Shown: positions 1,959 through 63,460 of the stretch, piece after piece
Position numbering within the stretch: the first letter of the stretch is position 1
Layout of the letters: each line of letters starts with the position of its first letter
Assembly: GCA_964016885.1 (NCBI GenBank)
Contig: OZ024740.1
Location: forward strand, 298,778,001 to 298,842,000
Source: Eledone cirrhosa
Lineage: Eukaryota
Reading direction: 5' to 3'
DNA length: 64,000 nt
Position numbers and translations under genes: made by a program
The notes under the pieces: model-generated
The model's database searches: none
The model's input: only the letters and a program-made list of their open reading frames with translations
Told to the model about the DNA's origin: nothing

Positions 1959-1992
<34 letters not shown>

Positions 1993-1995
<3 letters not shown>

Positions 1996-29588: not shown

Positions 29589-29619
<31 letters not shown>

Positions 29620-30959: not shown

Positions 30960-32151
30960 GGTTACACGTATTTGTGAAATGCTCAACCACTTACACATTA
31001 ATTTCGAACAACTGGAGCACTCCTCATCAAAACCAATGGAGATCCATTCCTATTATCTTCAAAAAGATGGGATTGTCATGAGTGGAATTTCTATAATTAT
31101 AAATCTGCTGAATCACTCAATCAAAACTGACCTGAGGCTAAACAGCAACAATATCTTACAGACAAATAAATAAATAACATTTTATTGACCACCATTATAA
31201 CTTTTAGGTTTTGTAGTTTCATTTGAGAACTTTTGACTGCTGATGGCAGAAATCAGACAGTTCTACTCTCTTTTTTTTTTTTAAGGAAATTTTTTTCTGA
31301 GTCATATAATGTCTCATATTTGTGTATAATTTCTCATTGGCAATATTTCTAGAGAAAGATATGGCCTGGAGGTTATTTCTACTAATATTTCTAGGTCTCT
31401 TTATTATTTGAATTGCAATACAGCAGAACAAGCTGTTTAATTATCACTGTAGAATTCTTTCCTCTTTCATTATGTCGATCAATTCCTCATACCTATATAA
31501 TCCATCATTATCTTTCTTCATCTCCTTGAATATCTACATCACCCTGCTCCCACCTAGACTTTTCTAACCTTCTACTTTTTCCTTTTTTTTTTCTTTTGTC
31601 TCCTCAACCCCCTTCTCCTCTTCATTATGCTTGCATTTCTGATGGAATTGTAATTTCTTTTTTACCACCACCAGCAATACCAAAGCTGCAGCTATTGAAG
31701 CATAATTAACACATTTATAGTACACAATTCATTTTTTGGCAGTACTGTGTAATGATTACTATATGGCTGCCTTCATTCTGAGTTCAAATGCTGCTACACC
31801 TGACTTTGTTTTTCATTTCATTGAGATTAATACAAGCATGGAAAATATATGTTGAATAATGATGATGATGATGTAGCAGGATAGGCCAGGGATTATACAA
31901 AACCCCAGGCCTATCCCAATTGAGTTCATATGATCTGATCAAAGATTCATGATCATCTCATATTTTTTTTACAAACATGAAATCATTAAAAAAGATGTTA
32001 AGTACCAGTTATAATTACATGATATTTTTTTTTCTTATTTTGCTTTGTTAATTAAACATTTACAAAAAAGAGTATCAATTCAATAGTGATATAAGTCCAA
32101 TCAATCATACCCCCGCTACTTTTAAAAAATTGACATTCTTCCTGGTTATAC

Positions 32152-32551
32152 ATCATCATAATCATCATCATCACCGTTTTACATCTGTTTTTGCACACTA
32201 GCATGGGTTAGACAGGTCGTCCTGTTGTGGGCAGTGTCCAGTTGGCTGACCTTGTCTTGCTCATACAGAACTGATTTTGGCTTGATTTCTACAGCTGGAT
32301 GCCCTTCCTAACACCAACCTCATTTACAGTGAGTGCTGGGTGCTTTGTTTCCGTGGCGCCTGCACGTCCAGTTTACAGTGTGGGCTGGGTGCTTTTCACC
32401 GTGGCACCTCCATGACCACTTTGCAGTGGAATGATAGGGACCCCAGTCCTATAATCTCATTTCTACAGCTGAGTAAACTGGAGCAATGTGAAATAAAGTG
32501 TCTTGCTCAAGGAAACAACACATCACCCGGTCTGAGAATTGAACTCACAAC
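32152..32551 (-). mobile_element. Same SINE family, head truncated at a TA tract
   Basis: 32270-32551 matches 41730-42011. Confidence 0.8.
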
Positions 32552-32569
32552 ATGTATATATGTATATAT

Positions 32570-32754
32570 AATGAAGGAAGTGTGGTAAGGAACCAGGTGG
32601 ACCATAATGCACCAGAGTACTCGATACTTAGGGTAGGAGAGTGGGTAATAGGAAAAGAGTCAGGACCCCAATGGTTGATCTCATGTCGCTTCGACGGCTA
32701 GATCTGAAGTAGCTGTCGAAACAGCCGGAGCTCAGCCGTCGGGGTCCTGACTCT

Positions 32755-32758
<4 letters not shown>
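32570..32758. other. TA-bounded ~190-bp element ending in a 107-nt hairpin
   Basis: Perfect 18-bp arms at 32652-32669 and 32741-32758, with inner TTCGACGGCTA/TAGCTGTCGAA. A right-arm copy is at ~19947-19997. Confidence 0.75.
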
Positions 32759-32793
<35 letters not shown>

Positions 32794-33351
32794 CATTATT
32801 ACCATAACCATTTAGTTGTATGGGCAGATAAGTCACACCCCCATTTTACATATAATGGTCTTCATTCAGTACTTGATTTATTTACATATAAGACAGAAAT
32901 TTATATATGCTTGGATGAAATTTCTAGCAAAAAATTAAAAATTAGCATATTTTTTCCCTGTAATATCTGATAAACCTAGATATAAACAAATCTTTTGGTA
33001 GCATTCTACAAGTTAAGCCTATGTTAATAAACTCTTAATTCTCTATATTTAATTATTGTGTTTTAGTTATTTAATCAAATGCCAAAACAGATTTTATTAA
33101 ATTTCATCACAAGCAACAAGGCATTTTATTAAATTTCATCGCATGTAATAACTAAATAAGCAACATTCTCTGTATACCCCAGAATGCACGTACCATTTCC
33201 TGTGAATTTTAATTATATCAAATACCTTTTCTGGTGTAGAACATGTTTGGAAGTTTATAAACTCAAGTAAATTGCAGAACAACAATACAGACTTTATACA
33301 TTGCTAATCTGTTCTACATCTGTATAGTGCAATAATGATGATTTCTAGTTC

Positions 33352-33627
33352 ACGCACGTGGCCTAGTGGTAAACGTGTTGAATTTAGATCATAATGTCGT
33401 GGGTTTGATTCCTGGGCTGGGTTGTGCGTTGTGTTCTTGAGCAAAACACTTCATTTCATGTTGCTCCAGTATACTCACCTGAAAATGAGTACCAGCAATA
33501 GCTGGGGAGTTTAACCCTGTGATGAACTGGCATCCTGTCCAGGAGGAAGTTTTATATGCTTAGTTGCATCATGCCACAAATCTGGATAAGCACTGGCCTG
33601 ATGAGCCTCCTAGCATGAGACAGACTT
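33352..33627 (+). mobile_element. tRNA-derived SINE with a Meta-domain-like core; diverged antisense copy at ~28280-28520
   Basis: A/B boxes, then AACCCTGTGATGAACTGGCATCCTGTCCAGG...GATAAGCACTGGCCTGATGAGCC...CAGACT. This resembles the MetaSINE core as I recall it. Confidence 0.6.
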
Positions 33628-33789
33628 AGAGTTTAGGCAAAAGACGAGAGTTTAGGCACATTTGTAGGGTGGGGAAAATCAATTATATCGACCCAGAAAA
33701 GGATGAAAGGCAAAGTTGACCTCAGCAGGATTTGAATTCAGAATGTAAAAGGTTCCTTTAAACCCAGCTTGGATTTCTTTTAAACCCAG

Positions 33790-34130
33790 CTTTTCCCTCA
33801 GCTTGTCCAAGCTCTGCCTTTCTCCTACTTTACATTGCACTTCCAGTCCTGTGACTGGAAAATGTTTATATCATTAGCACTCTTCCTCTTGATTTCTCCT
33901 GTGCATCTTCTACATGCAAAGTTCTCCCTTCCTGTTCGTCTACTCATTATCCCACTACATCTTTTGTGTACTGAAGATTTACATTATGTATATTGTATGG
34001 AGTTTATGCCTACTCATTTTCTGCATATTAAGCATGGCCACTTCCCTGAGTGAATATGAGTATATCTTCTCTTCTCACAGCACTTTTGTTTAGGCTAAGT
34101 TTACTCTCAGACCTTTTGATTCCAAATTCC
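33790..34130 (-). mobile_element. Older RTE fragment covering the PHD-like finger region
   Basis: Diverged similarity to 17100-17400 (cactacatctttt..., agcatggccacttccc). Confidence 0.6.
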
Positions 34131-35469
34131 AAATATATCCTTATTGTGTTATATTAATTTTATTTACTCAACACTTATAATTATCCATAAATATATTTTA
34201 GCTATTTAAAGGTAACTATTTGAAGCACTGCCAGCTTAACACACTACTTTTTGTGTCTAAAAAGTATCATATATTTTGTATTGAATTCAGAAAAAATATA
34301 GTTGCTTGACCAGCTGAATTCCTGCTTAAAGAGCAGTTTGGATTCATAACTATCTGACTGGAAGCTTCTATTGGTTAGTAACAATTATTTTGGCATGATA
34401 CCAGCAAAACTGCTTGCAGTCGGGAATGAGAAACACTCTTCATACTCATGATCAATATACAGATAAAATTTTCAAGTGTTCATGGATCTCTCAGTAGTTG
34501 TCAAGCATGAAATTTAGTTGTAGTTGAATACCTTCCAATTGGTGATGCTGGGTGATTTTCTCCAACTATTGTAAGCTTGTAGGTTTTGTTTAGTAATGGA
34601 CAATGGTTATGTAAGATATATAGGGGTATAATCTTTGTTACCAGCTTTACAGTACTGGATCAGTTAGAAATTTGTTGCCAAGAATAGCCAGCCTTAAAAT
34701 TGTCAGATCTCTGACCAATTAGCTGACATGAAATACCATAGAATTTATGGAACAGACATTGTGTTGTATATTGATGTACAATGGGTTCTGGTGGCTGGTA
34801 ATGATTGGCTGTTTCTATGAAGAAATAGGGGTAAAAACGTAGATCATGATGATGTTGATCATCATCATTTAATGTCCACTTTCCCTGCTATCACAGATGA
34901 AGGCCAGGGTTTTGCATCTTATTTACATATAGTCTCATGTTCTACTGAATGCATTTATCATGGCACCAGCACAAAAGATGTTGTCATGTCTTTGGTACAA
35001 CTGAAGTTTCTACCAACACTTTGTTGGGCAAGCTTCCTATCACCAACCATTTTACAGTGTGTACTGGATGTTTTTATTGTGTAGATCACCAACACTGGGG
35101 AGGCTGTCATGTCCTCGACACAATTGAAGGGTCCTCCCAACCCTTTGTGCAAGCCCTATTTTTCACTCTGTTGCTACTGCCATTGATGGTGACTTTCATT
35201 GGCACTCAACACGTTTTGGGTTTCTTCTTTACTATCTTCACCTCTTGGTTAAGAGTCTTGCTGTTGCTGTTGTTGTTTTACCAAAGCAGACCTTTGATCA
35301 AAGACATTCTAGCCGTGATCATCCTATCATTTCAGAAGAGTTTATCTCAGACTTCATAATCAAATTCTGCATTCCTTTTTCAAAAGACGTTTGAGTAGGA
35401 TTTGAGAGATATATGGTGTTGTTTCTAACAGGATAAACAACAATATAAAGACTATTCAGAGTGTGAGGT

Positions 35470-35935
35470 GTCTTCTTCGCCCAATTATTCCTGAGAGAGT
35501 AGTGGGGGAAGATTCCTCAAACACTCCTTCTAGCAGGTCCTGTCAGAAGCAACCATCTCCAACTGATTTGACTGGATCCCCAAGCATGACCAGCCAAGTT
35601 TGTGGAATGTTATCTAACCATCTTGCTCTGGGTCTACTCCCAGATCTCCTGCCAGTTGGTTTTGCCAGTAAAATCTGTCCAGTGATTCTTTCCTGAGACA
35701 TTCTAACCACAATCCCATAGTATCGGAGGTGTGATCTCTCAATTTGGAGAAGTAGCAGCTCTACCTGGAGTGACTCTCTGATCTCCGAGCTATGCACTCC
35801 ATCAATTAATATTACTCAAAAGACACATCAGAGGAACTTGTATCGGCTGCCTGTATTTGTTGTTTGTATTCTTTTGGTCATTAACCAAGATTCATGATCA
35901 TAGGTAATGGTTGGCACGAATACTGAGGGTATCAA
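35470..35935 (-). mobile_element. 3' end of the second RTE-type LINE family; related pieces at ~14982-15200 (-), ~18700-19010 (+) and ~52780-53060 (+)
   Basis: IERSHLRYYG.VVRMSQER...KPTGRR..SRPRARWLD C-terminus. The shared 3' end has a (GAA)n tail. Confidence 0.75.
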
Positions 35936-36017
35936 TATGTAAATCCCTGCTCTAATCATAAGCCTGCATAAACTTTTTAGCACAGACATTAACAAAAATA
36001 ACAAACACAGCATATAT

Positions 36018-36031
36018 TACACACACACACA

Positions 36032-36097
<66 letters not shown>

Positions 36098-36104
36098 CAC
36101 ACAC
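36018..36104. repeat. (CA)n microsatellite
   Basis: Direct inspection. Confidence 0.95.
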
Positions 36105-39100
36105 TTCTATTGTATGTACAGCCGGAGGTGTTCTTGACACTAGTAAAGGTAGCAGTAGGTGATAATCTTAGAATCGTTTAGATAGTAGTTGAGAAAATGA
36201 GTGATATTGTGATAGTCATAAGCTGCTCCTTCTCCCTCAAGCAAGCTACATCCAAGGGCAGTGGGCTGGCAGAATTGATGCAGTTTTGGACAAAGTGCCA
36301 AGCTATGTTTACTTTCATCTCCTGAATTAAAATCATCTTGTGGTAGATAAATGAAATATTAGTCAAAGGTAGTGGACTGGCTGAATTGCTATCCCTGGTT
36401 TGAGTGCCTTGCAGTATTTGTTCCTTGTCTTTGCATTCTGCATTTAATCTTACTATTGCCTGGTTTAACCACCGGCACCTGTCTTTTAGTGGAGTACACC
36501 ATGCTGCAAGCTGGTCTCCATTTTGAAGATACCTTCCTCCCTTTCACCATTTTAGCGGACCTTTAAATGGTAATAGGTAATGGCCTTCCAGTTAGAGATG
36601 CTTTCATTTCACTGTTAATCTTTTAAATGAAAAGCAGTAACATCAGAACACCTACTTTCCCTAAACCCTGCAGTCTGTATAGGTTGATCACCCACTGGTG
36701 AATACCATTGATCACAAAAGTCTCAAACAATTACTTCTTTGTATTACACTTGTGTGAGGAATAAATCATGGTTTTTCTTCTGCTGTTAGGATACTAGAAC
36801 TTTCAGAGCATCTGATAGCTTAGAAGAAAGAAGTAGATGATGATGATGATGTTTATCAATATGATGATGATGATGATGTCTTGAAACTTTGCACTTAAAA
36901 ATGACAGTTAAAGCTTTATTTTTTCTCTATAAAAAAAAAAAATTATAATTAAATACTAAACCAAACTAAATAAAAATAAATTTAGAAAACAATTTTTAGG
37001 AAAAAATAAAGAAGAAATGAAAGTGAGGTGGAAAGGAAGCTTTTTCATTTTATTGCTGTCATTTTTGTTGTTATTGTTGTTGTTGCTGTTGATGTTGCTT
37101 TCTGAATTTTACCTGCTTATCTCACAACAGATTATTGTGCATTCTCTTGCATCTTTAATGCAAATCAGTTGCTAATGGTAACAGCCTTTCAGAATTAGCG
37201 TCAACTACAGCGAATCTATATGGAATTCTGTCTTATAGCAATATTGATGTGTTGCCCAGCTATATTTGCCAAATATACATTTACAGCATTACTTTGATAA
37301 AATTCTGTGGCTGTTGCTTCTCCCCACCTCCTCGCTTCTCTTTCTCTCTGAAATGTTACTAGCAGAGAGGTGGGAAAGCAGGGATATAAGTATTTCTTTT
37401 TATTCTAAAATTTGGCACCTGTTTACAACTGAACATGGCTCTAAACTGGGTTTCATGTACTTAGTACCTCTTATCCTGTTACCATCATTATTATATGTAT
37501 GTGAGTGTGAATGCATGCACGCACACACACAGACACACAGATACACGGACACACACATGTGATAGAAGAGACAGTATAGAGGAGAAGTAATGCTATAGGA
37601 ATAGTATAGGGTATAAACAGATCTGATGCAACTGGACTGGTGAAGAGGGCAAGAGTATGATAGGAGAAAGAGAATAATTGGAGTAAGTAACGGAGTAGGA
37701 TTAATGGGAGAGGAAAAATTGTTGGTAAAAATAATTGTTTCTACGTTAAGCACAAGGCCAGCAATCACCCAGTACATTACTGGTACTTTATTTTATCGAC
37801 CCCATAAGGATGAAAGGCAAAGTTAAACTTAATTTACCTTGTTGGTAAAAATAATACAAGTGAGATAGTACAGGTGTCTGTGGTGGGGTAGTGGTAGCTA
37901 CATGTTTTCTGGGGATTGGTGAAATTGATGGATGTCAAGATGAAGTAACTTTGGAGATAAAGAGTAATGGTTGTCAGGGTGATGCTCAGATGGTTGGGGT
38001 ATACATAGATCTGGTGCAACCCCTTGTACATAACCATCATAATAAGGTAGATAAGTAGACAGATAAGGTTGGTGGCAGGTGCAGAGATTGAATACAAACA
38101 GAACTTAAAACATCCCTTGTTTTTTTTTTCTGAAGGTACATGGCTTGGTGGCTAGGTTGTTCATTTCACGATCATAAGGTTGTGAGTTCAATTCTTGCTC
38201 ATATCAGGCAAGAGGTTGTGTCCTTGAGCAGGATGCTTTACTTCATGTTGCTCCAGTGGTCTGAATACATATTATTCCTTTCTACTGTATTAATGATATT
38301 GAAAGCTCTAGAGACAAAAGAAAATAATCTGTTGCTGAGGCTACCTCTTATTTCTCTATGCTTGGATGAGATGGAGCCATCCTTACTTCTATGTGTTGTT
38401 TGGTACAGTAAATAAGATGAGGAACAAATACTGCAAGGCACTCAAACCAGGGCTAGCAATTCAGCCAGTCTGCAGAATCTGCAGATGGTTGCTTAAGGGG
38501 GTCATATAGGATAGGAGATCCAGATGAAAATATATCTCTCAGCCTCTACCACTACCAACATTGTCATGTTTCTTTTGCTATGCTTGCAGAGGTTGGTGGG
38601 TTTTCTCCATCACAAGGTGTCACCAATCACCACAGTGTTTTACTGTCTTTATCATTTCCTTCATAAAGCTCAGCATCCTGATATCAGTTGTCATCACTTT
38701 GTTCCATGTCTTCTAAAGTCAACCTATTGAAAGTCCTGATGTTTTTTTATACAGTTGCTATCCTCAATGTACATCATATTATTGTACCAGTCCTATCTTC
38801 TTTCTTACACTCTACATCTAATTTCTCTTATGTCCATGTTCCATCTCTGCTTATTTGTGCTTCATTGTTCATATTCACTAAAATTGCACATCCATCAGAA
38901 CATACTTCATTCCTTTCTACCCTTCTCAGATTCTCTGCATTTAAGGCTCACATCATATTACCAAGCAGCATGGCATTTTGTACACATCATACAATCTACC
39001 ATTCCCTACTATGCTTTCAGAACACTCACTTCCACAGATAATTAACATTGGTAGAGCTTCTTCCTGCTACAATGCTAAATGATATCTCATCTAGGCTAAT

Positions 39101-40222
39101 TCTGTCACAAATCAATTGTTCTATGACACTTTTAGTAACTTCCATGATTTGGTTCATTAACTTACTACCTTAGAAGCTTTCTTTCTCTAATGCACCTCCT
39201 TTGCCCTAGTAGCAATTAATAATGATGCTACATCAGTAATTGTGCTATCTGATTAAGGATTAGAATGGTTAGCAGGTAATATACCATCATCATCACCGTT
39301 CAATGTCCAGTTTCCATGCTAGCATGGGTTAGATGAGCTGTCCCGTTGTGCGACAAGCCAGGATGGATGATCATGTCTTGCTCATACAAAATTGATTTTG
39401 GCTTGGTTTCTACAGCTGGATGCCCTTCCTAATGCCAACCACATTTACAGTGTGTACTAGGTGCTATTTGTTGTGACACCTACACAACCATTTTACAGTG
39501 TGGGCTGAGCACTTTTTGTCATGTCACCAACACGACCACTTTGCAGTGTGGGCAGGGCGCTTTTTGTCATGACACCTACACGACCACAGCAGATATTTTC
39601 AGTAAACACACATGCACACATTCATACACATATGCATATGTGCAAACATACATGTACACACACAGTATATCCTCTTTCAAACACCAATCACTCTGTTAAG
39701 TGGTTGATCTTTGACACGCTGCCAAAAATTGGAGCATAAACGTGAGATGTGATCCTCCAGCCTGTTCAGGGAGTAGTAACTCTGAATAAGAACTAATTTG
39801 GACTGTAGTAATTCCTCCAGCCTTGGCAGTGTGGAAAGTGGATGTAAAATGGTGATGATGTTGATACACTTATGTGTTTAAATTTTATATTTAAAACTGC
39901 ATTCAATATCTATACTACATTATCAAAGCCTGAGGATACAGCTATCTCTTCCCTACTGTAATAAAGTCATTTAGATTAGTTTATTTTATAGTAGTGCAAA
40001 ATTCTAGAACAGTCCCTTTCAATACAGTACATTAATTTAACCCTTTCATAGCTGCATTTCTAATTAAATACACTCTGTTTTAATTAATTAAGGAAACATT
40101 TCAAGGGATTTATCAAAATTATTAATTATTTCGTTAGTAAGATAGTAACTTAATGTAAGGTCCTTATATAAAATTATGTTCCTTTATGATACTGTGGTTG
40201 AATGTGTTATTTCCTGTTATAG

Positions 40223-41197
40223 TCATCATCATCATCATCGTTTAACATCTATCTTCCACGCTAGCATGGGTTTAGATGGGAATTGTCCCACTTGAGGCAA
40301 GATTGGTCGGGTGACCATGTCTCACTCGTATAGGACTGTCTGGCCAGTTTTCTACGGCTGGATGTCCTTCCTAACACCAACCACGTTTACAATGTGGACT
40401 GGGAGGTTTTTACCGTGTTACCTACACAGCCACATTACAGTGTGGACTGTGTGTTTTTTTGTCATGACACCTAAACGACCTCATTTATTTTGGACTGGAT
40501 GTTGTGGTACCAACAACTTTACAGAGACAGGGTGGTGTTGGTGGGAGTGGGAGGTGGAGTAGGGTAGTGGGATGGGGATGTATATTTGGCTAAGAGGTGC
40601 CTACTGACTGTAGGTTTCGCTTTGTACATAGGCAAGGTGGGTCTTCTGTATTACTGCGTAGTGCCAAAGATCTCGGTCCAGTGACATTGTCTTAGCGAGG
40701 TGTAAGTGTGTAAGGTCGGAATTTATCAAATCGTACCAGGTTATTCTGGGTCTACCTACTCCGTAACTTCCATCACTTTTTTATACAGCTGTCATCTTTC
40801 ATGCGCATCAGGTGACCATACCAATGTAGTCTTCTCTCAAGTAAATAGCATCTGATCCCTCTTATTCCTAATTTCTCATTTAGTTCATTTATGGTTTGCT
40901 GTTTGCGTATATTACTATTACACATCCAACGGAATATGCATGCTTCGTTCCTCTCCAGTCTGCGCAGGTCCTCTGCATACAATGCCCATGTCCCACTGCC
41001 ATGTAACATTGCTGTTCGTATGCAGGCATCATACAATCTGCCTTTCATTTTTAGAGAGAAACATTTTGTGGCCAACAGTGGTATAAGCTCTGAACTTTTT
41101 CCATCCCGTTCTGACTCTGGCTACTGTACTTTCAGAGCACCCTCCACCACTGCTGATTTTGTCACCCAGGTAACGGAAGGTGCCCACTATTTCTATA
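40223..41197 (-). mobile_element. RTE-clade LINE, 5'-truncated (same family)
   Basis: Same ORF end (LYDACIRTAMLHGS, RLHWYGHLMRM), 3' UTR and (GAT)n tail. Confidence 0.88.
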
Positions 41198-41678
41198 GTA
41201 CAGATGTATAACTATTGTTACAGTACAGTCAAGTACACTGCAATATAGTTGTATAATACATTTATGGCTGGATTTAGACCCTGGGGACCTGGGTCATTTC
41301 AGGTTTGGGGGCCCCCTCATACAAAAAAAAATTAGAATACAGAGGAAACCCACAATTTTACACATTAAGGTCGACTGCTGCAAGTAACTGGAATTGAAAA
41401 GTCATACATATTGGTATTAAATTCAGAAAATTTAACTACTTTCCACAATGGCATGTATTGGAGAGGTTCTCACAGTCCAAGACCAGATATATTGGAGCGA
41501 CCTCATCTTGCTCATACATTACATATTTTATATGATTTCTATGGCTGGATGCCCTTGCTAACATAACTACTTTAGAGTGTTTACTGGGTGCATTGTTTGT
41601 GCGATACCAGCACAACCACTTTACACAGCAACACTAAATATTTTATTGCCCCCCATTAAATCCATCCCTGAATACAGT

Positions 41679-42061
41679 ATCATCATCATTTTTTTACGTC
41701 CACTTTTTCCTGCTTGCAAGGGTGGGACTGGAACTGATTCTGGCTTGATTTCTACAGCTGGATGCCCTTCCTAACACCAACCTCATTTACAGTGAGTGCT
41801 GGGTGCTTTTTTTCCGTGGCACCTACATGTCCACTTTACAGTGTGGGCTGGATGCTTCTTTGCGACCACCTCCACGACCACTTTGCAGTGGAATGATAGG
41901 GACCCCAGCTCCTATCATCTCATATCTACAACTGAGTAAACTGGAGCAATGTGAAATAAAGTGTCTTGCTCAAGGACACAACACATCATCTGGTCTGAGA
42001 ATTGAACTCACAACCTTTCGATTGCAAGGCCAATGCTCTAACCACTAAGCCATGTGCCTCC
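41679..42061 (-). mobile_element. Same SINE family, full length
   Basis: Reverse complement of 10531-10923. Confidence 0.85.
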
Positions 42062-42149
42062 ATAATTTCAGTAATACTGTATATCAATATAGAATAGTAC
42101 AGTTCTGTACAGTTTCCATTATAATATAGCAATTATAATATGCTTTCCA

Positions 42150-42500
42150 GCATAGTTACGTCCCTTTACGATCTGAGTTCAAATCCTGCCAAGGTTAACT
42201 TTGCCTTTCATGCTTACGAGGTCAATAAAATAAAGTACCAGTAATGTACTGGGTAATTGCTGGCCTTGTACCAAAAGTAGAAACAATTATAATATAGCAA
42301 TTAGGGTGGTGGATTGGCAGAATCAGTAGAGGGTCGGATGCCATGCTTTGCTGCATAGAGTTACAGCCCTTTACAGTCTGAGTTCAAATCCCTCTGAGGT
42401 TAACTTTGCCTTTCATCCTTACGGGTTCAATAAAATAAAGCACCAGTATTGCACTGGGATAGTTGTTGACCTTGTGCCAATAGTAGAAACAATTATAATA
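42150..42500 (+). mobile_element. Two tandem SINEs with a Nin-domain-like core; other copies at ~33660-33750, 37736-37838, ~62860-63075 and ~63170-63260 (all -)
   Basis: CTGAGTTCAAATC B box plus CTTTGCCTTTCATCCTT.CG.GGTC.ATAAAATAAAGTACCAGT. The 37736-37838 copy has a perfect 17-bp TSD (TTGTTGGTAAAAATAAT at 37719 and 37839). Confidence 0.65.
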
Positions 42501-42708
42501 GTAATTCAGTGCAGTTCCATTATAGTACAATTCCACTACAGTAGAGTACTATGGTACAGTTCTGTTATAGTAGAACAGTTCAGTGTAGTTCCAGTCAAGT
42601 ACAGTTTCTATTACTTTACACTAATCCATTTCATTAACCATTGTTCCACCATGTCTCCCAACTAAAAATATATTATTTCAGTTGTTGCTATATATTTCTA
42701 TTATGCAG

Positions 42709-42780
42709 GGTATTGAAGATTATTTGGGTGACATGGACTTTAAGTTAGCTGGTACAAGGAAAGGAGTCACAGCTTTGCAG
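42709..42780 (+). CDS. PNPT1: PNPase exon with the catalytic aspartates ([24 protein letters not shown])
   Basis: ED..GDMDFK.AG metal-binding motif. 72 nt, phase 0-0, bounded by tgcag and gtaaac, and in frame with the previous exon. Confidence 0.97.
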
Positions 42781-49709: not shown

Positions 49710-49965
49710 TACATACATATACATATAATTATTGGGGGGGGGGATTAAATTTATTAGTGAGAAATAATAGATATATAGAGATTTGAAGGAACATAGATTC
49801 ATAACCTGAAATTAAAGCATTATATATGTTTACTTAATGGTATCAGTTTTAGGAAATGATAGTTGTAAGAAGGAAAATAAAATTATGTAGTTCATCAGTA
49901 GTAGAATATTAATTATAGGTTAACTAAATTAAAAACAGTTTATATATTAATTTCTAAAGTGTATA

Positions 49966-51581
49966 TTAATTAGGTTTATAATATTTAAAGGTTTTTCTCA
50001 GTTTATGATTACACAATATTATTAATTCCTGTCGATTATTTAATAGGATATCCTTAGATTTCATTATTTCAAAAAGTTCTTGGGAACATAATCTACATTC
50101 ATATCTATTATTTTGATAAGGGGTGGCCCTTTTAAGCACACTCCAGGTCAGGTCATAATCTATATTCCTCTTTCTATAATTATTAATTATTTCAGCTAGA
50201 GATGTTGTATTAGCTAGTGCAGCATTTTAAAAACTATGTTTGTGGGTATTAAATCTTACCTTAAATTTGTTAGAGGTAGCTCCTATATATGAATAAATTG
50301 AGTCCTTAGTGTTAACTTTACATTTATATATTATGTTATTAACAAGGCAATTTCCTTTTAATGGGCAGTTTGCCTTGTTTCTACAGTTACAACTTTTTGT
50401 GAATCCTGTATCTGAGGAGATATTATGGTTAGTTTGATGTACTGGTGGTATACTCATGGTTTTTTTACATTTATATGCATTGTAGGCACTTATATTTTGT
50501 TTTATATTTTTGGTTGTTGAGTAGGAGAATTTAACCGTTGATCTATTTAAAATTTGATGGTATTTGTGGTTTGGCGGGAAGTTTTTCTCTAGGATATTAA
50601 AGAATTTCTTAGGTATATTATCCTTAATTTGTAAATTAAATGGAGCATTATACCAAGTAACTCGTCTATTATGGTTCAATGTTGTTTATTGTTTTTATAG
50701 GATGTATCCTGATGTTTATTAAGAGAATTATTGTTAATGACTTCACCACACACATTTTTAGTTAAATTTATTGATTTAGGTGTTTTAGCTTGTTTATTAG
50801 GAGTTTTATTATTAACATTTATTAGAGTTGTAGGATGAGTAGTTTTTTGAGAGTTACTATATTGTATATTAGAAGAGTTAGAGAAATTTGGTTTTATGTT
50901 GGTGTTTTGGGGTATAGTGTGAGTGGCATTTAGGTGTGTATGTTTCATTTGGTGTTTGTTGGTAATATTAGGTTGTATGTTTGTAGTGTTATTGGTAGAA
51001 GGTATATATACTAATTTATTTTTGTGGCCACTTCTAGCTAGAGCTTCGTTATAAAAGGTTGCATTTTTATCAAATACATCCTGGTTAGACGAAAGGTTAG
51101 AAATTCTAAGTGATATATTATATGCAAGGTTTTTAAAGATAGATTTAGGGTGATTAGATTGTGAGTGTATGTAGTGTAAATTTTGGTTAGGTTTATGGTA
51201 AGGTTGGTAGATACCCGTAGATAAGTCTAATGTTATATCTAGGAAATTAACTACTTTACTTGTGTTTTCAAATGTAATATCTAGACTATAATAGTCTTTA
51301 AGGAAGGTTCTAATAAGCTTTTTATTTTTTTCTATCTCTGAAAGGCTAAGGTTATTGGAAAGAAGAAGACAGTCGTCACGATATAAACCACCTTTAAGGT
51401 GGGGAAAGGAAGCATTTATGTTAAAAAGAAGAAAGAGGCCCACAAGATCAGTAATTTGGGCAGAATCGCTTGAGCCCATAGTAATATCGAATAGATTACT
51501 ATATGTGTTTCTGGTCCAGTATTCATTTTGAAATTCCAATAGTGTTAGTCTAGCATGTGTAATAATATTAATGTCATCCAA
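49966..51581 (-). pseudogene. Disrupted RT-GIY-YIG ORF of the Penelope-like element
   Basis: Frameshift near 50677, TAA stop at 50227, second frameshift near 50165. The N-terminal RT motifs are missing. Confidence 0.88.
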
Positions 51582-51662
51582 AGATATATATGGAAGGCCA
51601 CAGAACTGCTCTACGGGTTATATATATATAACCCGTAGAGCATATGAAAGTTTGTGAGTTCA

Positions 51663-52102: not shown

Positions 52103-54893
52103 TAGAATTAGAAATAAAAGATGAAATGGAAAGATAAAGAGTGAGAAGAGAAAGGAATGGATGAAAAAATGAGAGAAAAACATACATGTGCATATTCAGT
52201 CAGCATATATATATATATATATGAGGATGTTATATATGCATACTCACTGATGTACATTTCCCTGCCTCCTTCCTTCATCATCATCATCTTAATACACATG
52301 TGGTTTCGTGCTGATGTGTCTACTACACAGCTTATTGACAATCATATTGTCCTCTGGCTATCTCTTCTGTGAAGCACAGTATCTTGAAATCTTGAATTTC
52401 TCCACTATTGCCTTATATATCTTTCTTTTCCATGTGAAAGATGTGAAATACATGTAAACCATTTTAACATGGATTTATTGTCAATTCATGTCACATGTCC
52501 AGACAAATGTAGTTGTCTCTCTTGTGGAAGTTGTCATTAATAATCATCCACTCCCTGAACTTACTTGTGCTCGAAAGGTTAACATTATACATCCAACTGT
52601 TTATATTCACCTACATAGATCTTCTATATTCAGTATCCATGTCTTACTACCATGGAGCATTGCACATATTCCCCTCCCTAAATTTCTCCCACTGTTCCTT
52701 AATCTAGTTTATATATTTTCACTACAACCACCTCTCAGCAACCATATCTAGCACTAATTAGATCATCTGAGTTAACAAACTATCAATCATGCCCAGTGAG
52801 TCATATGAATACTTTGTAGACTTTGTTTCATAATCACTTCTAATGGACAGATTTTTTAGGCGAAACCAATTGGCAAGAGACCCAGGAGTAGACCCCGATC
52901 AAGATGACTGGATAACATCCATGAGCTCAGCTGGTCTTGCTTGGGGATTCAGCTGAATCAGTTGGAAATGGTTGCTTTTGACAGAACTCACTGGAAGGAG
53001 TGTGTGAGGACTCTGCCCCCACAATCTTCTCAGGAATAAGTGGGCAAAGAAGAAGACTTCTTCTGATAACTATTTTTGTGTATCTGTCATCATATTTGAA
53101 GCCTTGCTTTTCTGTGACTCTGCCACATATCTCCCCACCACCACCAACATCATTATCAGCATCATCAGTATTTTTACAACTGTTTTCCATACTTACATGA
53201 TATTCAAAGATAAGTATAGATGAAGATAGTGAGGAGACAGAGATAGTTATAGTTTTCTACACCATATACCATTTTTCGTCTATTTTAATCTTTAATCTTC
53301 ATATGTACATAATATGATTTACACGTGTGTACAAAAACTTCTTGTGCATTTAAAAAAATTTAAATCTACCCAGAGGTGGTTAAGGAAACAATCTGGTATA
53401 AATGTAAGAAAATAATAAATAATTTAAATAAAGTATCTTAGTTCAGTGGAAGGTTATTTTATTCTCTACCTATTGTTTTTGGCTTTTATGCACTTAATAC
53501 AAAAATAGTTAAGCCTTAATAGAATTTTTTGATTATGATCATTCCAAATTTCACTTTTATTATTTCACTTCTATTAATTAACCTTGATTGAATGATCCAG
53601 AAATGTATTCAGTGATATGGTTAACAACCACCTATGTTGTAGAGTGAAGATGCATGAGTTTGATTCCTGGAATAGGCAGTGCATTGTGCCCTTCAGCAAG
53701 ATACTTTATTTTATACTACTCCAGTTCACTCAGCTGGAAAAAATGAATTGCAATGTCCCTGGTACCAAGCTGTATCAGCTTTTGCCTTTCCATTGGACAA
53801 CATGAGTGGCATGCAGAGAGAAGACGGGTGTGCATTGTTAACTGCTGGTCTTCCACAAAAATACCGTGTCTGGGCTTGTGCCTTGGAGAGGAACTTTCTA
53901 GGTGTAGAGTCTATGGTCTTTCATGATCAAACGAGGCCTATGATGTAGAAGTTGGGCTAGTATACATGGTGGCTTTGGTTTAATGCAGACAAAGGTTTTG
54001 GTACAATACAAACTTGATAATAATAATGAGCATGTATGATTATTCTGTGTATAAATGAGAAATTTCATCTGTTTGGCTCAATAACATCCCCTTGACTTTC
54101 ATTGAAGATGGAACTAAGGTGATAAACTAATGAAATTAACAAATGTTTCTCTGATGCAATGAAATATATAGATTGGATCCCATTATTTATAGCTAAAAGC
54201 ATTTATTCAGTAATGCCTACTATCTTGATAGCTAACTGATCTCTCTTCACTTTAATTAGACTAGAGCTACAGAAAATAAAATACCTTTGGGATTTATTTG
54301 ACACATTAGTTCGCCTTTGCCAATTACATTTATAAATTTGATAGAATCTTCCACTGCTTTCTCAAGGTTTCTGGTTTTAAGGTGAGACATTCATGTCCAT
54401 TTATCTGTAATTTCTCGAAGATTGGCTTCTAAAAGATTAAATGCAATAGATGGAAACTATAATAAAAATAATACTACATTGACACATACAGAAGAAATGA
54501 GGACAATTCAGTGTCTTAACCCCCCCCCCCCCCAAAAAAAAAAAGAAAAATTCAGTTGCCAATTGTGAAGACATTCATATATAAAATCCCAATCATAATT
54601 TTACGAAATCCATTGTATAGGTATGGAAAATGTTATCTTTCAGATTTGCTCAATGTAAAACTCAATGTAAATCTCAATGTAAAACTATTGATAAATGGTG
54701 ATGATGGTGATATATATATATGTATATACAATATGTTGAAAAGGTAACACTAGAGAGAGATACAGTGCGCTATAAATAAAACAGGGAAAAAAACCACCAG
54801 TGTATGGAATCTATAACCTATGAAAGGCAGAGTATAGACACGATAATTAAAAATATAAATTAAAGCGTAAATAAATACCTCTATAACTATATA

Positions 54894-54975
54894 ACACACG
54901 TACAAATCCAAAGTGATCTGTTTCGCCAGTAAGTTGTTGACAGAAATGAAATAACCCAGGTTCATCAGCATGTTT
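54894..54975 (-). ncRNA. Type I hammerhead ribozyme, inverted copy of 55070-55151
   Basis: Same core, stem II and stem III on the minus strand. Stem I is ACAUG/CGUGU. Confidence 0.62.
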
Positions 54976-55069
54976 AAGGCCATAGATTTCTGGCAACACT
55001 AAGAGAATTTTTAAAGCGACCGTCCATCTACATGTGGGAGAGAGAAGTCACAGCAAAATGTATGGCCTT

Positions 55070-55151
55070 ACACACGCTGATGAACCTGGGTTATTTCATT
55101 TCTGTCAACAACTTACTGGCGAAACAGATCACTTTGGATTTGTACGTGTGT
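55070..55151 (+). ncRNA. Type I hammerhead ribozyme, sense to PNPT1
   Basis: ACACACG-CUGAUGA-[ACCUGGGUU...AACUUACUGGC]-GAAAC-AGAUC-ACUUUG-GAUUU-GU-A-CGUGUGU: 7-bp stem I, 7-bp stem III, predicted cleavage after A55144. Stem II is imperfect. Confidence 0.72.
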
Positions 55152-55405
55152 TATATAGTTATAGAGGTATTTATTTATGCTTTAATTTATATTTTTAATT
55201 ATCGTGTCTATAGTCTGCCTTTCATAGGTTATAGATTCCATACTCTGGTGGTTTTTTCCCTGTTTTATTGATAGCGCACTGTATCTCTCTCTAGTGTGTT
55301 ACCTTTTCAACATATTGTATTTTAAAGAACTCAGGATTTCTTCTCCTTTGAGCACATTATTTACAGGGAACAGCGAGAGTCTATGGCTCCGTTAATGTAT
55401 CCTGA

Positions 55406-55443
<38 letters not shown>

Positions 55444-55618: not shown

Positions 55619-55760
55619 ATTATTATTATTATTACTTTGATATCTCAGTCATTGATGTTATTTAACTGGAAAATTTGCCCTAATGAACATCAAGCCTTTA
55701 CCTACAGCTTCAGATATTCAGGATGTATCAGAGCACCTTGCTGTTCCCAGTAGGCATGCC
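55619..55760 (-). mobile_element. Diverged 5'-truncated 3' fragment of a Dong-like LINE, in tandem with the full copy
   Basis: Aligns by eye (roughly 80%) with 55770-55907, covering the ACLLGTAR codons and 3' UTR. Has its own (TAA)n tail. Confidence 0.85.
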
Positions 55761-55761
55761 A

Positions 55762-58700
55762 TTATTATTATTATTATTATTCTTTGAGTCTCAGTCATTG
55801 ATGTTAGTTAACTGGAAAGTTTGTTGAAATGAATATCAAGCCACAACCTGCAGCCTCAGATATTCAGGACTTATCAGAGGGTTCTTGCTGTTCCCAGCAA
55901 GCATGCCTTTTGAAGCGTTCCAAAAAGCGTGAAGGGGCCAATTTTCTTTAACCATCCCTGGAAACTTTTTGAGATAGTCCCTAGTGCGCCTATGACAATC
56001 GGGATCACTTTGACTTCATGGCAGTTCCAAATCCTTTTTACCTCCCACTTTAAGTCCTGGTATCGGTTAATTTTCTCCCTCTCCTTCTCTTGCACTCTCG
56101 TGTCGAATGGGCAGGCCACATCCACAATCAGGCACGGTCTTTTTTCTTTGTCCACAACCACCAGGTCAGGTCTATTGTGTTCCAGTTTCTTGTCTGTCTG
56201 TATCCTAAAATCCCACAGCACCTTCACCTGATCGTATTCTATCACCGAATCTGGCTTATGCTCATATCACTTCTCAGAATGTGGTAAATTGTTTAGTTTG
56301 CATAGGTGCCAGTGGATCACCCTGCCCATCACATCATGTCTCCAGCCCTTATAGTGAGTCTGGGCTAGGTGTTTACACTCGGATACAATGTGAGCCACAG
56401 TCTCCTCTCTCTCTCCACAGATCCTGCACAGTGGGCTAGCCTCCTCCTTGTAAATATGGTGTTTCAACCACTTCATTTTGAGGGCCTGCTCCTGCGCAGC
56501 CATTAACATTCCTTCTGTAGCCTTTTTAAGGTCTCCTCTTTTCAACCAGTTCCATGTCTGTGGATCTCTAAATTCAGTTTTCTCAAAGAAGGTACTATGA
56601 AGGGATTTTTCCTGAAGGCTGCTCTTTCTCCTTGATGTTATTTCCTCCTTGGACATCCCCTGGCCTATTGTCCCCTCCTTCAGTACAGTTCTGAGCATTG
56701 GCTCCTTACTATCAGTCACGTATTTGTGTAGGTTGTTTTTCTCCATCTGAACACAGTCCTCTATGCTGATAAGACCTCTTCCACCTTCATATCTCCTTAA
56801 GTAGAGTCTATCGACATCACTCCTCTTGTGGAACATGTTGTAGATAGTCAATAGCTTCCTAGTTTTCTTATCCATTTCTTTTTGTTCAGCAACATTCCAT
56901 CTCAGAATTCCTGCACTGTACCTAATAATAGACACAGCTCGGGAATTTACTGCACTTATGGCATTCCTACTGTTCAGATGTGACTTTAATACGCTCCTTA
57001 CTCTCCGAATGTATTCAGTTCTTATCAATTCCTTCAATTTTTTGTTCTTGATGTCATCAGCCTCCAGAACACCCAAATACTTGTATCCTTCTTCAGAGTC
57101 AATTTCCTTTATCATCTCACCTGTTGGTACCTGGATTCCGTTACTTCTGCTCAACTTACCCCTCTTCATCACAATGACTCCACACTTACTAATACCAAAT
57201 TGCATACATATATCATTGCTGAAAATACGGACAGTGTCAACAAGCACATCCAACTCCTTCTCACTCTTCCCGAAGAGCTTAAGATCGTCCATGAAGAGGA
57301 GGTGATTGATGGTAAACCCTCCCTTTCCCAACCTGTATCCTGCTCTCACTTTTCGCAGTACACTGGTCAGGGGCATCAGGGGAAGGACAAACAACAGAGG
57401 GGACAGACTATCTCCCTGGAAGATACCTCTCGTGATCTTCACGCTTCCCAAGGATTCTCCAGCTGATGTTAACTCTGTTTCCCAGGACTTCATACTTTTG
57501 CTCAACAACTGTCTGATGTTATCTGCCACCTTGAAGATCTCCAGGCTTTTGGTGATCCAAGAATGAGGCACCATGTCAAATGCCTTTTTGTAGTCTATCC
57601 ATCCTATGGCAAGACCAGTGTGTCTCCTCTTGCAATTCCTCATTACCATCTTATCAATAAGTAACTGGTCCTTTGTACCACGTGACTTCTTTTGGCATCC
57701 TTTCTGTTCGTCCAGTAACAAGTTGTTTGTGTGGAGGTGATGGTAGATTTCCTCAGACATAATGCTTGTCAACAGTTTCCACATTACGGACAGACGTGAT
57801 AGGTCTATAGTTGGTAATATCATTACCCTTGATTCGGTCTTTCATTATCAGAACTGTGGTACCTTTTGTCAACCACTCTGGTACCTCACCTGACATCAAG
57901 CAGTCATTGAACATGGTTGTCAGTTTCGGGTGGAGGGATGTTATATTTTTAATCCAATACCCCTGCACACCATCTGGGCCTGGTGATTTCCAGTTGGTTA
58001 GTTTTTTGGCCTGCCCCTTAAGAGTTTCAACTGTGATACTCAAATCAGTTTGTTGGTGTGCCTGTTCACTAATCTCCTTCTGTACTGTCTCAATCCACAC
58101 TGCCTGGTCATTATGTTTAACATCCTGCTCCCATATTCCTCTCCAGAATGTTTTAGTTTGTTCCGCCTCAGGGATCAAGTCGTTGCCTCTTTCTTTCCCT
58201 TCAAGCTGTCCAAACAGCATCTTCTGGTTGTTGCCGAACATGCGGTTCTGTCTAAACTGACTGACTCTGTTCTCGTATCGCCTGATTTTTGGACTCTGCT
58301 ACAATGCGTTGCTTCAGTTCCTCTATGATAATATTTAGCTTTTTCCTCCTAGTTTTGTACTTTATTTCCAGTCTATTTTTAGTGTCTATGTTTTTTAGTG
58401 TCCCATTCAGTAGGGACTCAAGCTTTCCAATGTCATTTCTCATTTCCCTGATTTGACCACTCAGTCGTTTCTTCCACCAAGGCTCTGATCTTTCTTGTCT
58501 GTTGTTTCCTCTCGCTTTTATACCAAGTAGTTTCCTCACCGTATTTGCTGTTGCTTTGAGGATATTGTTGCACTGGTGAAGGCTCCTCGCCTCAAGGTAT
58601 GGGATGACTTTGTTTACCTTAGCTGTTGTTTCTTTTAACTTTTTCCTGTCTACAAATCTTAGGTTCATAGGTCTCCCACTATCATTGTTCAATTCATCTA

Positions 58701-60621
58701 CCACTAAGTTTAGGATATCAACCAAATCTTGTCCTAGCCCGTCAGCATTCATCTCCTCAGTGGCCGTATCTCTGTTCCAGGTATTATTTATCTCAGCATT
58801 CAGATCATTGTCTGCTTCGGGTGGTTCCTCCGTTCTCTCGACCTCTTCACCTTCATTTCCCACTGGCTCGTTTGCCTGGCATACTCCACTCTCCATCTCC
58901 AAGCTAATCTCTCTGCTCAGTTCCTCCAGTTCCAGCTCGCTTATCCACCCATTAGTTCTTATTACCCGAGCCTGCCCGGCCAATTTTTGTTCATCTAATT
59001 TAAATAGACCAATCTCGTTCCAGATGTTATGCATCCGTTTCCTATAGCCTTTCTCCTTGGGGTTACTCTTCAGGTAACATTGTATAACAGTTCTATTTAA
59101 TTCTTTCGTCCAGTTGGTTCTGGTCCCTTTCCTTCTTTTTCTTCCTCCTCCGACACCAGCAGTATTTGGTTGACAGCCAGGTCCCTGCTGCTGAGCCAGG
59201 GAGCACCTGTTGGGTGAGAGTCTGTCACATGACATTCTAGTCTCCATTTCACCGTTATTCGAACTGTTTAGGTTCGACATTTAAACACTCTTACCGAGGA
59301 TTGGCAATTGTATGGTTACATAACCACCGGTGACCTCATCACCTCCGGTGATTTCGTCACTCCCGGTGATTTTTGTGTGGCATTATCACGCTGTAGACGA
59401 ACATAAATAAACAAACAAACAAACAGGCAAAAAAAAAAACCAAAAATGAATAAGTATACGTTTCATTGTAATGTAGTGTTTGAATGTCTGACTTAGTTTT
59501 TCCCTTCCCTTCTCTGTCCGTCTGTTTGTTTTTCTCTTCATTTTTCTTTTCTTTACGTCTTTTGTTGTTGCTGTGCTGGTTTGATTTTGACTTTTGGTTT
59601 CTTGATTTTGACCAGGTCATCAATTCAGTCTATTTATATATTTTGATGCCTTCCTCTTTTAGTGGGGACACTACGATGTAGCAGGGGGTAGCGGGATAGT
59701 GATAATGAAGCAGTGGTGGTGGTGCTGTGCTAGCAGCAACTAGCAGGAGGTAGTGGGAGAGAATAGTGGCGGTAGCGATAATGAGGCAGTGATGGTGTTG
59801 AAGTTGGAGTAGAAATAGCGGTTGAGTCGACTTGACCAGAGTTTTCATCATGGTGGTGGTGTTGGTGGTGAAATTATCTTTAGTTATTTAGTCATTTTGC
59901 CATTTTTCTGCTTTTCGACTCTAACATTCCTGGTCCAAAATTAAATATTAATCTTGTTTATTAATATTGTCTAGTGATACCGCCACCTTCCCCTTTCGTA
60001 AGTTAACAGAAGGTAATGGGGGGGATAGCGGTGGTAGCAATGAAGGAGTGGTGGCGGCGGTGATGGGATAGTGGTAGTAATGATGGATGGGTGGCGGCGG
60101 CGGTGACTTTAGTGATGGCGTTGTCGTTACTGAGTTTTGTTGAATAGACTGTATTTTTGTTTGATCGGTGAATCTATGGGGTTAGTCGCATATATGTGTT
60201 GACATATTTTCTTAATATTGGAATTAAACATTTTGTTAAGACTTGAGACAATAATAATAGTAATTATTATTATTATGCTGAGATTGGTGATGGTGAAATT
60301 TCCGTTATCTGGCTGTTGTATTTAGCGTACACAGAGGGGTGATGGGGTAGGTGGTGTATCTAGTTTCTGGTGTTGGTGAAATTGCTGTTATTTGGCTGTT
60401 CTATATAGTGTAGACAGAGGGGGTTTTCTTCCATTTATAACCATTTTCTTTTTTGAATATAAAATGTATAATACAAAATTGAATATTTGAGCGATATAAC
60501 AATATATTATGGATCCAAATTTTTCTGAGACTCAAGTCGAATGCCTTATGTATCATTTGTACTAAGAATTGCTATTTCACAATTGATTCAAATATGTTAA
60601 AAATCAAAACTTACGGGAGTG

Positions 60622-63396: not shown

Positions 63397-63460
63397 GCTG
63401 ATATCAAAGTTACTGGTATTCCTTTACAAATTATTGCTGAAACCATTCAAAAAGCAGCCA
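63397..63460 (+). CDS. PNPT1: PNPase exon (ADIKVTGIPLQIIAETIQKAA)
   Basis: Polypyrimidine tract plus ttcag acceptor and gtaagt donor. 64 nt. Continues TALQ|ADIK as in metazoan PNPases. Not in the supplied ORF track. Confidence 0.93.

What the first reader, a model, noticed from the sequence alone, without database searches (positions are those of the whole stretch)
54726..55410. Sense and antisense hammerheads locked in a 264-bp inverted repeat inside a PNPT1 intron
Seen: divergent arms, each encoding a complete-core hammerhead with a full 7-bp stem III, so potentially monomer-active. The + copy (55070-55151) lies on the pre-mRNA strand, but its complement is transcribed just upstream and would sequester it in a ~260-bp dsRNA stem. 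Established: PLEs produce inverted pLTRs; long intronic dsRNA is an ADAR substrate; A-to-I editing is extensive in coleoids. Inference: a self-masked ribozyme whose exposure could depend on editing or unwinding. It lies in the gene for an enzyme that itself handles dsRNA decay, though in mitochondria, so that link may be coincidental.
Basis: partly seen in the sequence, partly recalled or inferred. Interest (0 to 1): 0.72.

Follow-up and report, generated by a model that had tools for sequence, protein, structure and literature searches.

The report
Self-muzzled retrozyme copy in an intron
This is one ordinary insertion of an abundant, protein-free 541-base jumping repeat in an intron of an octopus-like PNPT1 gene; its two back-to-back copies were likely pasted in together by a Penelope-type enzyme, which would automatically bury the predicted self-cutting RNA in double-stranded RNA, so it is likely a silent by-product and not a regulatory switch.

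Summary
In detail: a 264-bp, 96% inverted repeat, a full hammerhead core on each arm, inside a 20.6-kb PNPT1 intron read on the + strand. The interpretation does not. The locus is one insertion of a 541-bp non-coding repeat (1,575 exact hits of one 25-mer). It consists of two 5'-truncated copies joined head to head, ending at the family's two fixed 3' ends in a (TA)n tract. Of 82 sampled loci, 49 have this layout and 5 carry a full hammerhead on both arms. In this geometry the antisense arm is always transcribed first, so masking is automatic. Folding puts 80 of 82 ribozyme bases in the duplex (127 kcal/mol to free them). Simulated editing never frees them, and editing would hit core adenosines. 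The weak stem II (A10.1-C11.1) is the subfamily's consensus. Family 5' ends pile up at the predicted cut site (14 against 3.9 expected), a hint that the hammerhead folds or cuts in the source RNA. Closest known: animal non-LTR retrozymes with Penelope-type insertion marks; opposite-strand hammerhead pairs are published. The scan already found the same architecture in other families of this genome.

The parts
54726..55054 (-). Inverted, 5'-truncated copy of the 541-bp repeat (monomer positions 129-457), ending at the family's short 3' end; includes the 66-base loop
55056..55408 (+). Direct, 5'-truncated copy (monomer positions 194-545), ending at the family's long 3' end
54990..55055 (.). Unpaired loop of the hairpin: 5' part of the left copy plus one untemplated base (55055) at the head-to-head junction
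55070..55151 (+). Type I hammerhead motif on the pre-mRNA strand: stem I 55070-55076/55145-55151, core 55077-55083 and 55121-55124, stem III 55124-55130/55137-55143, A10.1 55084 opposite C11.1 55120, predicted cut after 55144
   Evidence: sequence
54894..54975 (-). Second hammerhead motif, antisense to PNPT1; same core, two substitutions in stem I (6 of 7 pairs)
55321..55408 (+). 88-base 'tail' present on one arm only (between the family's two fixed 3' ends)
54710..54725 (.). Left (TA)n target flank; 54716-54725 is a candidate 10-base target duplication with one diagnostic G
   Evidence: sequence; weak because most flanks are pure (TA)n
55405..55440 (.). Right (TA)n target flank; 55405-55414 repeats 54716-54725
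   Evidence: sequence
42709..42780 (+). PNPT1 exon upstream of the host intron
63397..63460 (+). PNPT1 exon downstream of the host intron

Best explanation
The locus is two 5'-truncated copies of a 541-bp, protein-free hammerhead repeat joined head to head in a (TA)n tract of a PNPT1 intron, likely made in one event by a Penelope-type reverse transcriptase-endonuclease, and the sense hammerhead is predicted to be permanently and passively buried in the resulting hairpin. Steps: (1, inferred) the enzyme nicks both strands of the (TA)n tract about 10 bases apart; (2, inferred from fixed ends) one 3' end primes on the element RNA at monomer position 457, the other at 545, giving one arm without and one with the 88-base tail; (3, inferred) both cDNAs stop early (positions 129 and 194) and are joined end to end; (4, geometry) in such a divergent pair the antisense arm is transcribed first whichever strand is read; (5, predicted by folding) the right arm zips onto the left arm as it emerges, before the ribozyme is complete, so the pre-mRNA is not cut and the hairpin leaves with the intron, probably hyper-edited but without consequence. 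The hammerhead's likely role lies in the element's own RNA cycle (cutting multimers to 541-nt units, possibly circles), not in the host gene.
For: Copy number: 359, 1,575 and 402 exact hits for three short patterns, reversed controls 0. In 82 loci around the first listed 25-mer hits: 49 divergent, 2 convergent, 36 of 49 junctions with one long and one short end, 5 with full hammerheads on both arms; 11 divergent pairs among the first 100 hits of the older-subfamily pattern (counted from the list). 77 of 94 chains end at one of two sites, 72 of 76 such ends abut TA-type sequence. Both arms share a variant at monomer position 202. Arm divergence is typical. Nascent-RNA folding: 17 of 20, 52 of 55 and 93 of 96 right-arm bases already paired to the left arm. 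Four tandem units 0-0.8% apart in L206. Papers: inverted 5'-truncated copy, one-sided tail and (TA)n bias (PMC8557442, passages); two RT start sites make the tail and both strands are cut and extended (PMC11167929, parts 1-2 of 4); dual hammerheads 100-700 bp apart on opposite strands (PMC4209133, parts 1-2 of 4).
Against: No autonomous partner was identified: the one Penelope family tested (30 loci) shares no sequence with the monomer. The tail is 84-88 bases, not the 30-40 described for Penelope elements. The monomer (541) is longer than the published 150-450. The target duplication is diagnostic at few loci. Folding is a prediction; nothing here measures cleavage, editing or PNPT1 output. 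17 of 94 chains end elsewhere.
Confidence: 0.86

Rival explanations
1. The insertion arose as above, but the long intronic hairpin has an incidental effect on the host (editing sink, source of small RNAs, altered splicing or elongation) that does not need the ribozyme.
For: It is the longest and tightest of the 6 inverted pairs listed in the intron (the other non-palindromic pairs are 52-171 bases at 77-88%); predicted 264-bp duplex; long duplexes are ADAR and Dicer substrates (general knowledge).
Against: It lies 11.9 kb from the donor and 8.0 kb from the acceptor; hundreds of such hairpins exist in this family alone (inferred); arms decay at the ordinary rate.
Confidence: 0.08
2. The hammerhead of this subfamily is dead anyway (A10.1-C11.1, two-pair stem II), so masking is irrelevant and the family spreads without self-cleavage. 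This is compatible with the best explanation and changes only the role of the motif.
For: A-C in 32 and A-U in 8 of 40 full monomers, never G-C; G10.1-C11.1 is highly conserved in canonical and Penelope hammerheads (PMC4209133); the isolated arm prefers a rod, stem III probability 0.32-0.41; no Rfam match; hammerhead mutants still insert in vitro (PMC11167929); most chains read through the cut site.
Against: Core positions show 0 of 12 shared variants against 13 of 31 in loop II (P = 0.008), and the free N7 varies, though core against the rest of the monomer is not significant (P = 0.38). 5' ends pile up at 282-295 (14 against 3.9, scan-corrected P = 0.015).
Confidence: 0.35
3. One reading: a host-useful switch in which ADAR editing or a helicase exposes the ribozyme and cleavage lowers PNPT1 mRNA.
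For: Sense hammerhead with full core and 7-bp stems I and III on the pre-mRNA strand; an intronic ribozyme that tunes its host mRNA and is blocked by an antisense oligonucleotide is known (Cpeb3, PMC10919898, abstract only).
Against: Layout common to the family; opening costs 127 kcal/mol unedited and stays at +15.5 with every spared-set adenosine edited; the chance that six essential adenosines escape is 0.26 at 20% and 0.016 at 50% editing; inosine at the cut-site H lowered the rate about 30-fold in an engineered hammerhead (PMC3923133, passages); young insertion, 96-97% identical to family relatives.
Confidence: 0.02
4. The inverted repeat is a DNA transposon (MITE/foldback) or a local DNA fold-back duplication unrelated to reverse transcription.
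For: Long terminal inverted arms, no coding sequence.
Against: Arm lengths and junctions differ from locus to locus while 3' ends are fixed, the arms end at different monomer positions, tandem partial copies are common (31 of 82 loci exceed one monomer), and 33 of 82 loci have no divergent arm.
Confidence: 0.03

Closest known systems
Animal non-LTR retrozymes (Cervera and de la Pena 2020, PMC7229834, passages; Li et al. 2026, 10.64898/2026.07.22.740005, part 1 of 5 and passages)
   Same: Non-coding, low-GC repeat with one type I hammerhead per unit; dispersed monomers, dimers and short tandem arrays; frequent in introns (42-44% of copies in Xenopus).
   Different: Unit of 541 bp against 150-450; long 7-bp stem III, 31-base loop II and no G10.1-C11.1; mostly dispersed and inverted rather than long arrays; circular RNA not shown here.
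Insertion footprint of Penelope-like elements (Craig et al. 2021, PMC8557442, passages; Frangieh et al. 2024, PMC11167929, parts 1-2 of 4; Cervera and de la Pena 2014, PMC4209133, parts 1-2 of 4)
   Same: Inverted 5'-truncated copy at the 5' end, partial tandems, tail on one end only, (TA)n targets, two RT start sites, hammerhead pairs on opposite strands 100-700 bp apart.
   Different: No RT or GIY-YIG frame; tail 84-88 bases instead of 30-40; no parent pLTR found; hammerhead is of the long-helix-III kind reported for fungal and protist elements, not the minimal metazoan kind.
Intronic Cpeb3 ribozyme (PMC10919898, abstract)
   Same: Self-cleaving motif on the sense strand of an intron; can be blocked by antisense pairing.
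   Different: HDV-like, conserved and with a shown effect on its host (class recalled, effect from the abstract); here a young mobile copy, blocked in cis by its own arm, with no evidence of effect.

Membership tests
Type I hammerhead ribozyme | Core CUGANGA, GAAA, A15.1-U16.1 and an NUH cut site | tested here: met
   both arms; intact in 33 of 40 full monomers
Type I hammerhead ribozyme | Stems I and III can pair, stem I open | tested here: met
   7 of 7 and 7 of 7 on the + copy; 6 of 7 and 7 of 7 on the - copy
Type I hammerhead ribozyme | G10.1-C11.1 pair and a stem II of about 4 bp | tested here: not met
   A-C then two C-G pairs then U-U; A-C in 32, A-U in 8 of 40 monomers
Type I hammerhead ribozyme | Match to an Rfam hammerhead model | tested here: not met
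   no hammerhead family among 53 matches at E <= 1
Type I hammerhead ribozyme | Loop 1-loop 2 tertiary contacts | not tested
   no descriptor was run
Type I hammerhead ribozyme | Self-cleavage | not testable with these tools
   indirect only: 5'-end pile-up at 282-295
Non-LTR retrozyme | Non-coding repeat, one type I hammerhead per unit, many copies | tested here: met
   no frame of 100 codons over the locus
Non-LTR retrozyme | Tandem units with complete hammerheads | tested here: met
   family level: 5 of 82 loci have a chain with two or more, four in L206; this locus has one per strand, so it is not an 'active' copy by the two-unit rule of Li et al.
Non-LTR retrozyme | Unit length 150-450 bp | tested here: not met
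   541 bp; a descriptive range, not a mechanistic requirement
Non-LTR retrozyme | Expressed as linear and circular unit-length RNA | not testable with these tools
   no raw RNA reads could be laid
Penelope-mobilised insertion | Inverted 5'-truncated copy joined at the 5' end | tested here: met
   this locus and 49 of 82 loci
Penelope-mobilised insertion | Two fixed 3' ends giving a one-sided tail | tested here: met
   42 short and 35 long of 94 chains; 36 of 49 junctions long/short; tail longer than published
Penelope-mobilised insertion | (TA)n target bias | tested here: met
   72 of 76 fixed ends, flanks
Penelope-mobilised insertion | Sequence link to an autonomous element's pLTR | tested here: inconclusive
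   one family tested, no link; three long-spaced pairs and L061 held no parent element
Autonomous Penelope-like element | RT plus GIY-YIG reading frame | tested here: not met
   none in the locus or monomer

The most novel reading that the evidence does not exclude
Two-ended insertion works as a built-in muzzle: because a head-to-head pair is always read antisense arm first, it silences its own hammerhead in either orientation, and this lets a family with a live ribozyme (the 5'-end pile-up being the genomic footprint of cleavage in vivo) survive on the sense strand of introns where exposed copies are purged. It predicts that sense-strand intronic copies are enriched for arms that cover the hammerhead, while antisense and intergenic copies are not.
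Probability: 0.12. Interest if true: 0.55.

Novelty: new member of a known kind. Interest (0 to 1): 0.22.

Why it matters
As a locus it matters little: it is one of many alike, and shows that sense/antisense hammerhead pairs in octopus introns are a default product of insertion and should not be read as switches. The family is of modest use: its fixed ends, inverted arms and the excess of truncations at the predicted cut site add genomic support to the standing idea that Penelope enzymes mobilise animal retrozymes, and give a testable ribozyme variant (A10.1-C11.1, long stem III).

Tried and rejected
No RNA holder listed for the locus; nothing follows from that on expression, editing or cleavage. 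Three contig-only runs of one sample were laid: depth is dominated by other family copies, contigs break at the (TA)n flanks, and the A>G and T>C differences cannot be told from paralogue variants, so neither editing nor presence/absence could be read. Rfam gave only low-complexity microRNA matches and no hammerhead. Phage search: no match. Search for the autonomous parent: L061, L062, L104-L106 hold unrelated LINE or Penelope fragments; the young Penelope family present in the same intron has no sequence link (best E 0.14, low complexity). A-to-G substitution as a proxy for editing was judged too stabilising and replaced by the non-pairing model. The first truncation test included five loci picked by a hammerhead pattern and was redone without them. 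Target duplications are mostly uninformative in pure (TA)n. Folding of an older-subfamily hammerhead was not obtained (script error at the end). Paper searches for a natural ADAR-unmasked hammerhead or an octopus hammerhead element (listings only) showed none; the library lacks most subscription papers, and no supplements were read.

Full report
Observation. The inverted repeat is real: arms 54726-54989 and 55056-55320 align at 96.2%. Each arm carries a type I hammerhead motif. On the + copy (55070-55151) stem I and stem III have 7 of 7 pairs (one G-U in stem III) and the cut would fall after 55144; on the - copy stem I has 6 of 7. Stem II on both reads A-C, C-G, C-G, U-U, G-C, G-A. Rfam found no hammerhead among 53 matches at E <= 1. 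The host gene is PNPT1 on the + strand: an exon at 27100-27267 matches human PNPT1 (E 1.5e-18) and is closest to octopus proteins (88% Octopus bimaculoides, 81% Argonauta). Exons 42709-42780 and 63397-63460 encode consecutive residues of the Argonauta protein and flank a GT-AG intron of 20,616 bases. The element sits 11.9 kb from the donor and 8.0 kb from the acceptor.

What it is. The sequence is a repeat. Exact patterns give 359 hits (hammerhead 18-mer), 1,575 (25-mer downstream of it) and 402 (older-subfamily hammerhead), with reversed controls at 0. Tandem copies define a 541-bp non-coding unit. Mapped on it, the window holds a minus-strand copy covering positions 129-457 (55054 to 54726) and a plus-strand copy covering 194-545 (55056-55408), joined head to head with one extra base.

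The layout is the family norm. I took the loci around the first listed 25-mer hits on the largest contig (101 places, 94 chains, 82 distinct loci, four of them wider windows counted once; five loci picked only by the hammerhead pattern were removed). 49 of 82 have a divergent arm, 2 a convergent one, 65 hold at least one full hammerhead, 5 hold one on both arms, 31 have a chain longer than one unit. 42 chains end at 455-461, 35 at 539-545, 17 elsewhere; 36 of 49 junction pairs have one end of each kind; 72 of 76 fixed ends abut TA-type sequence. Among the first 100 hits of the older-subfamily pattern, 11 are divergent pairs within 1 kb (counted from the list); of five fetched, three show two complete hammerheads, one has arms that span both but failed my pattern, one has a partial second arm. 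Scaling 5 of 82 gives several dozen double-hammerhead hairpins in the genome (inference). The window's arms differ by 7 of 263 bases (2.7%), against a median of 3.3% for 44 arm pairs, so there is no sign that complementarity is being maintained.

How it likely arose. These marks are those described for Penelope-like elements: an inverted 5'-truncated copy, partial tandems, a one-sided tail and (TA)n targets (PMC8557442, passages); cutting and extension of both strands with two RT start sites that define the tail (PMC11167929, parts 1-2 of 4); and hammerhead pairs 100-700 bp apart on opposite strands (PMC4209133, parts 1-2 of 4). I infer two-sided priming at positions 457 and 545 and joining of the two truncated cDNAs. 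Both arms share a variant at position 202, and a 10-base candidate target duplication with one diagnostic G flanks the insertion (weak). L206 has four tandem units 0-0.8% apart over 250 bases, which fits a circular or uncut multimeric template, or later duplication. Against: the tail is 84-88 bases rather than 30-40, the unit is longer than published retrozymes (PMC7229834, passages), and no parent element was found. The young Penelope family that has a copy in the same intron shares no sequence with the unit (30 loci).

Is the ribozyme alive? Position 10.1 is A in all 40 full monomers and 11.1 is C in 32 and U in 8, so the weak stem II is inherited, not local decay (these 40 are not a random set, many were best hits to the window). 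The isolated arm prefers a rod by 3.4 kcal/mol, stem III probability 0.32-0.41. For function in the source lineage: 0 of 12 core positions carry a shared variant against 13 of 31 in loop II (P = 0.008), but core against the rest of the unit is not significant (59 of 459, P = 0.38). 5' ends pile up at 282-295, the predicted cut being 282|283: 14 of 92 against 3.9 expected, P = 6e-5, 0.015 after correcting for choice of window; two TA-artefact chains were dropped. This is ambiguous: 10 ends also fall at 267-281 (3.9 expected), the stretch is TA-like, and RT stalling at stem I would give a similar peak. Most chains read through the site.

Would editing unmask it? In the two-arm RNA 80 of 82 ribozyme bases pair with the left arm and forcing the hammerhead costs 127 kcal/mol. 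The growing right arm is paired from the start (17 of 20, 52 of 55, 93 of 96 bases), and in any head-to-head pair the antisense arm comes first whichever strand is read. Treating edited adenosines as unable to pair, and sparing those of the core, stem I and stem III, the penalty is 99.7 at 20% editing, 62.4 at 50% and 15.5 at 100%, while the chance that six essential adenosines escape random editing is 0.26 and 0.016 at 20% and 50%. Inosine at the cut-site H lowered the rate about 30-fold in an engineered hammerhead (PMC3923133, passages). Editing of the hairpin is plausible (general knowledge, untested) but is predicted to disable rather than release the ribozyme. Helicase unwinding cannot be excluded by folding.

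Comparison and novelty. It works like an animal non-LTR retrozyme mobilised by Penelope machinery (PMC7229834; preprint 10.64898/2026.07.22.740005, part 1 of 5 and passages, which reports 42-44% of Xenopus copies in introns with depletion relative to intergenic DNA). It meets the repeat, hammerhead-core and insertion-footprint tests, fails G10.1-C11.1, Rfam and the published size range, and circular RNA is untested. The one precedent for a host-useful intronic ribozyme that I looked at is Cpeb3 (PMC10919898, abstract); nothing comparable is shown here. Paper searches (listings) showed no natural editing-released hammerhead. The scan's own notes list the same architecture for other families of this genome (8 shown of 1,900 that fit); look-ups by this sequence, by place and by the masking idea returned nothing. 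These notes are unchecked and are not counted as support.

Verdict. New member of a known kind, interest 0.22. The boldest reading left open is population-level: two-ended insertion muzzles a live ribozyme and so eases survival in introns (probability 0.12), testable with a gene annotation.

Noticed in passing
window 49800-51642, minus strand, same intron: 5'-truncated copy of a young autonomous Penelope-like element (RT then GIY-YIG, break near 50680), with a 36-base perfect palindrome at its 5' end (51607-51642). The family is 93-100% identical in protein over 150 scored matches, 43,692 first-look candidates, open frames to 834 codons. Its 3' region shows CTGATGA but I saw no full hammerhead; Pfam did not recognise either frame.
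   Followed up: partly
window 55877-59280, minus strand: Broken non-LTR retrotransposon, RVT_1 E 2e-19, with a C-terminal segment resembling restriction-like endonucleases (label recalled), about 470 bases downstream of the finding.
   Followed up: partly
window about 20205-20250, minus strand: Separate minimal hammerhead-like motif (CTGATGA, short stem II, GAAA, tiny stem III) in an earlier PNPT1 intron, antisense to the gene.
   Followed up: no
window 54970-54993: Five substitutions private to the left arm cluster within 24 bases near the inner end of the hairpin; two 12-15 base motifs covering them occur in no other fetched locus. Unexplained: error-prone repair near the junction or a hairpin-loop mutation hotspot.
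   Followed up: partly
family-wide, L078, L102, L125, L139, L154 and others: An older subfamily (88-90% identity) has A10.1-U11.1 with a four-pair stem II and a U-U in stem III; the younger one has A-C and G-U. The two differ mostly in loop II.
   Followed up: partly
L206 (G000:C1:184085500-184090000) 841-3308: 4.4 tandem units, nearly identical, with a short inverted arm: a good locus for testing unit-length RNA release.
   Followed up: partly
window 55622-55910: 146-bp direct repeat pair (85%) just downstream; very deep contig coverage suggests another abundant repeat.
   Followed up: no
window 27268-42708 and 42781-63396: PNPT1 introns are very long (15-28 kb) and filled with repeats; four other imperfect inverted pairs lie in the host intron.
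   Followed up: no
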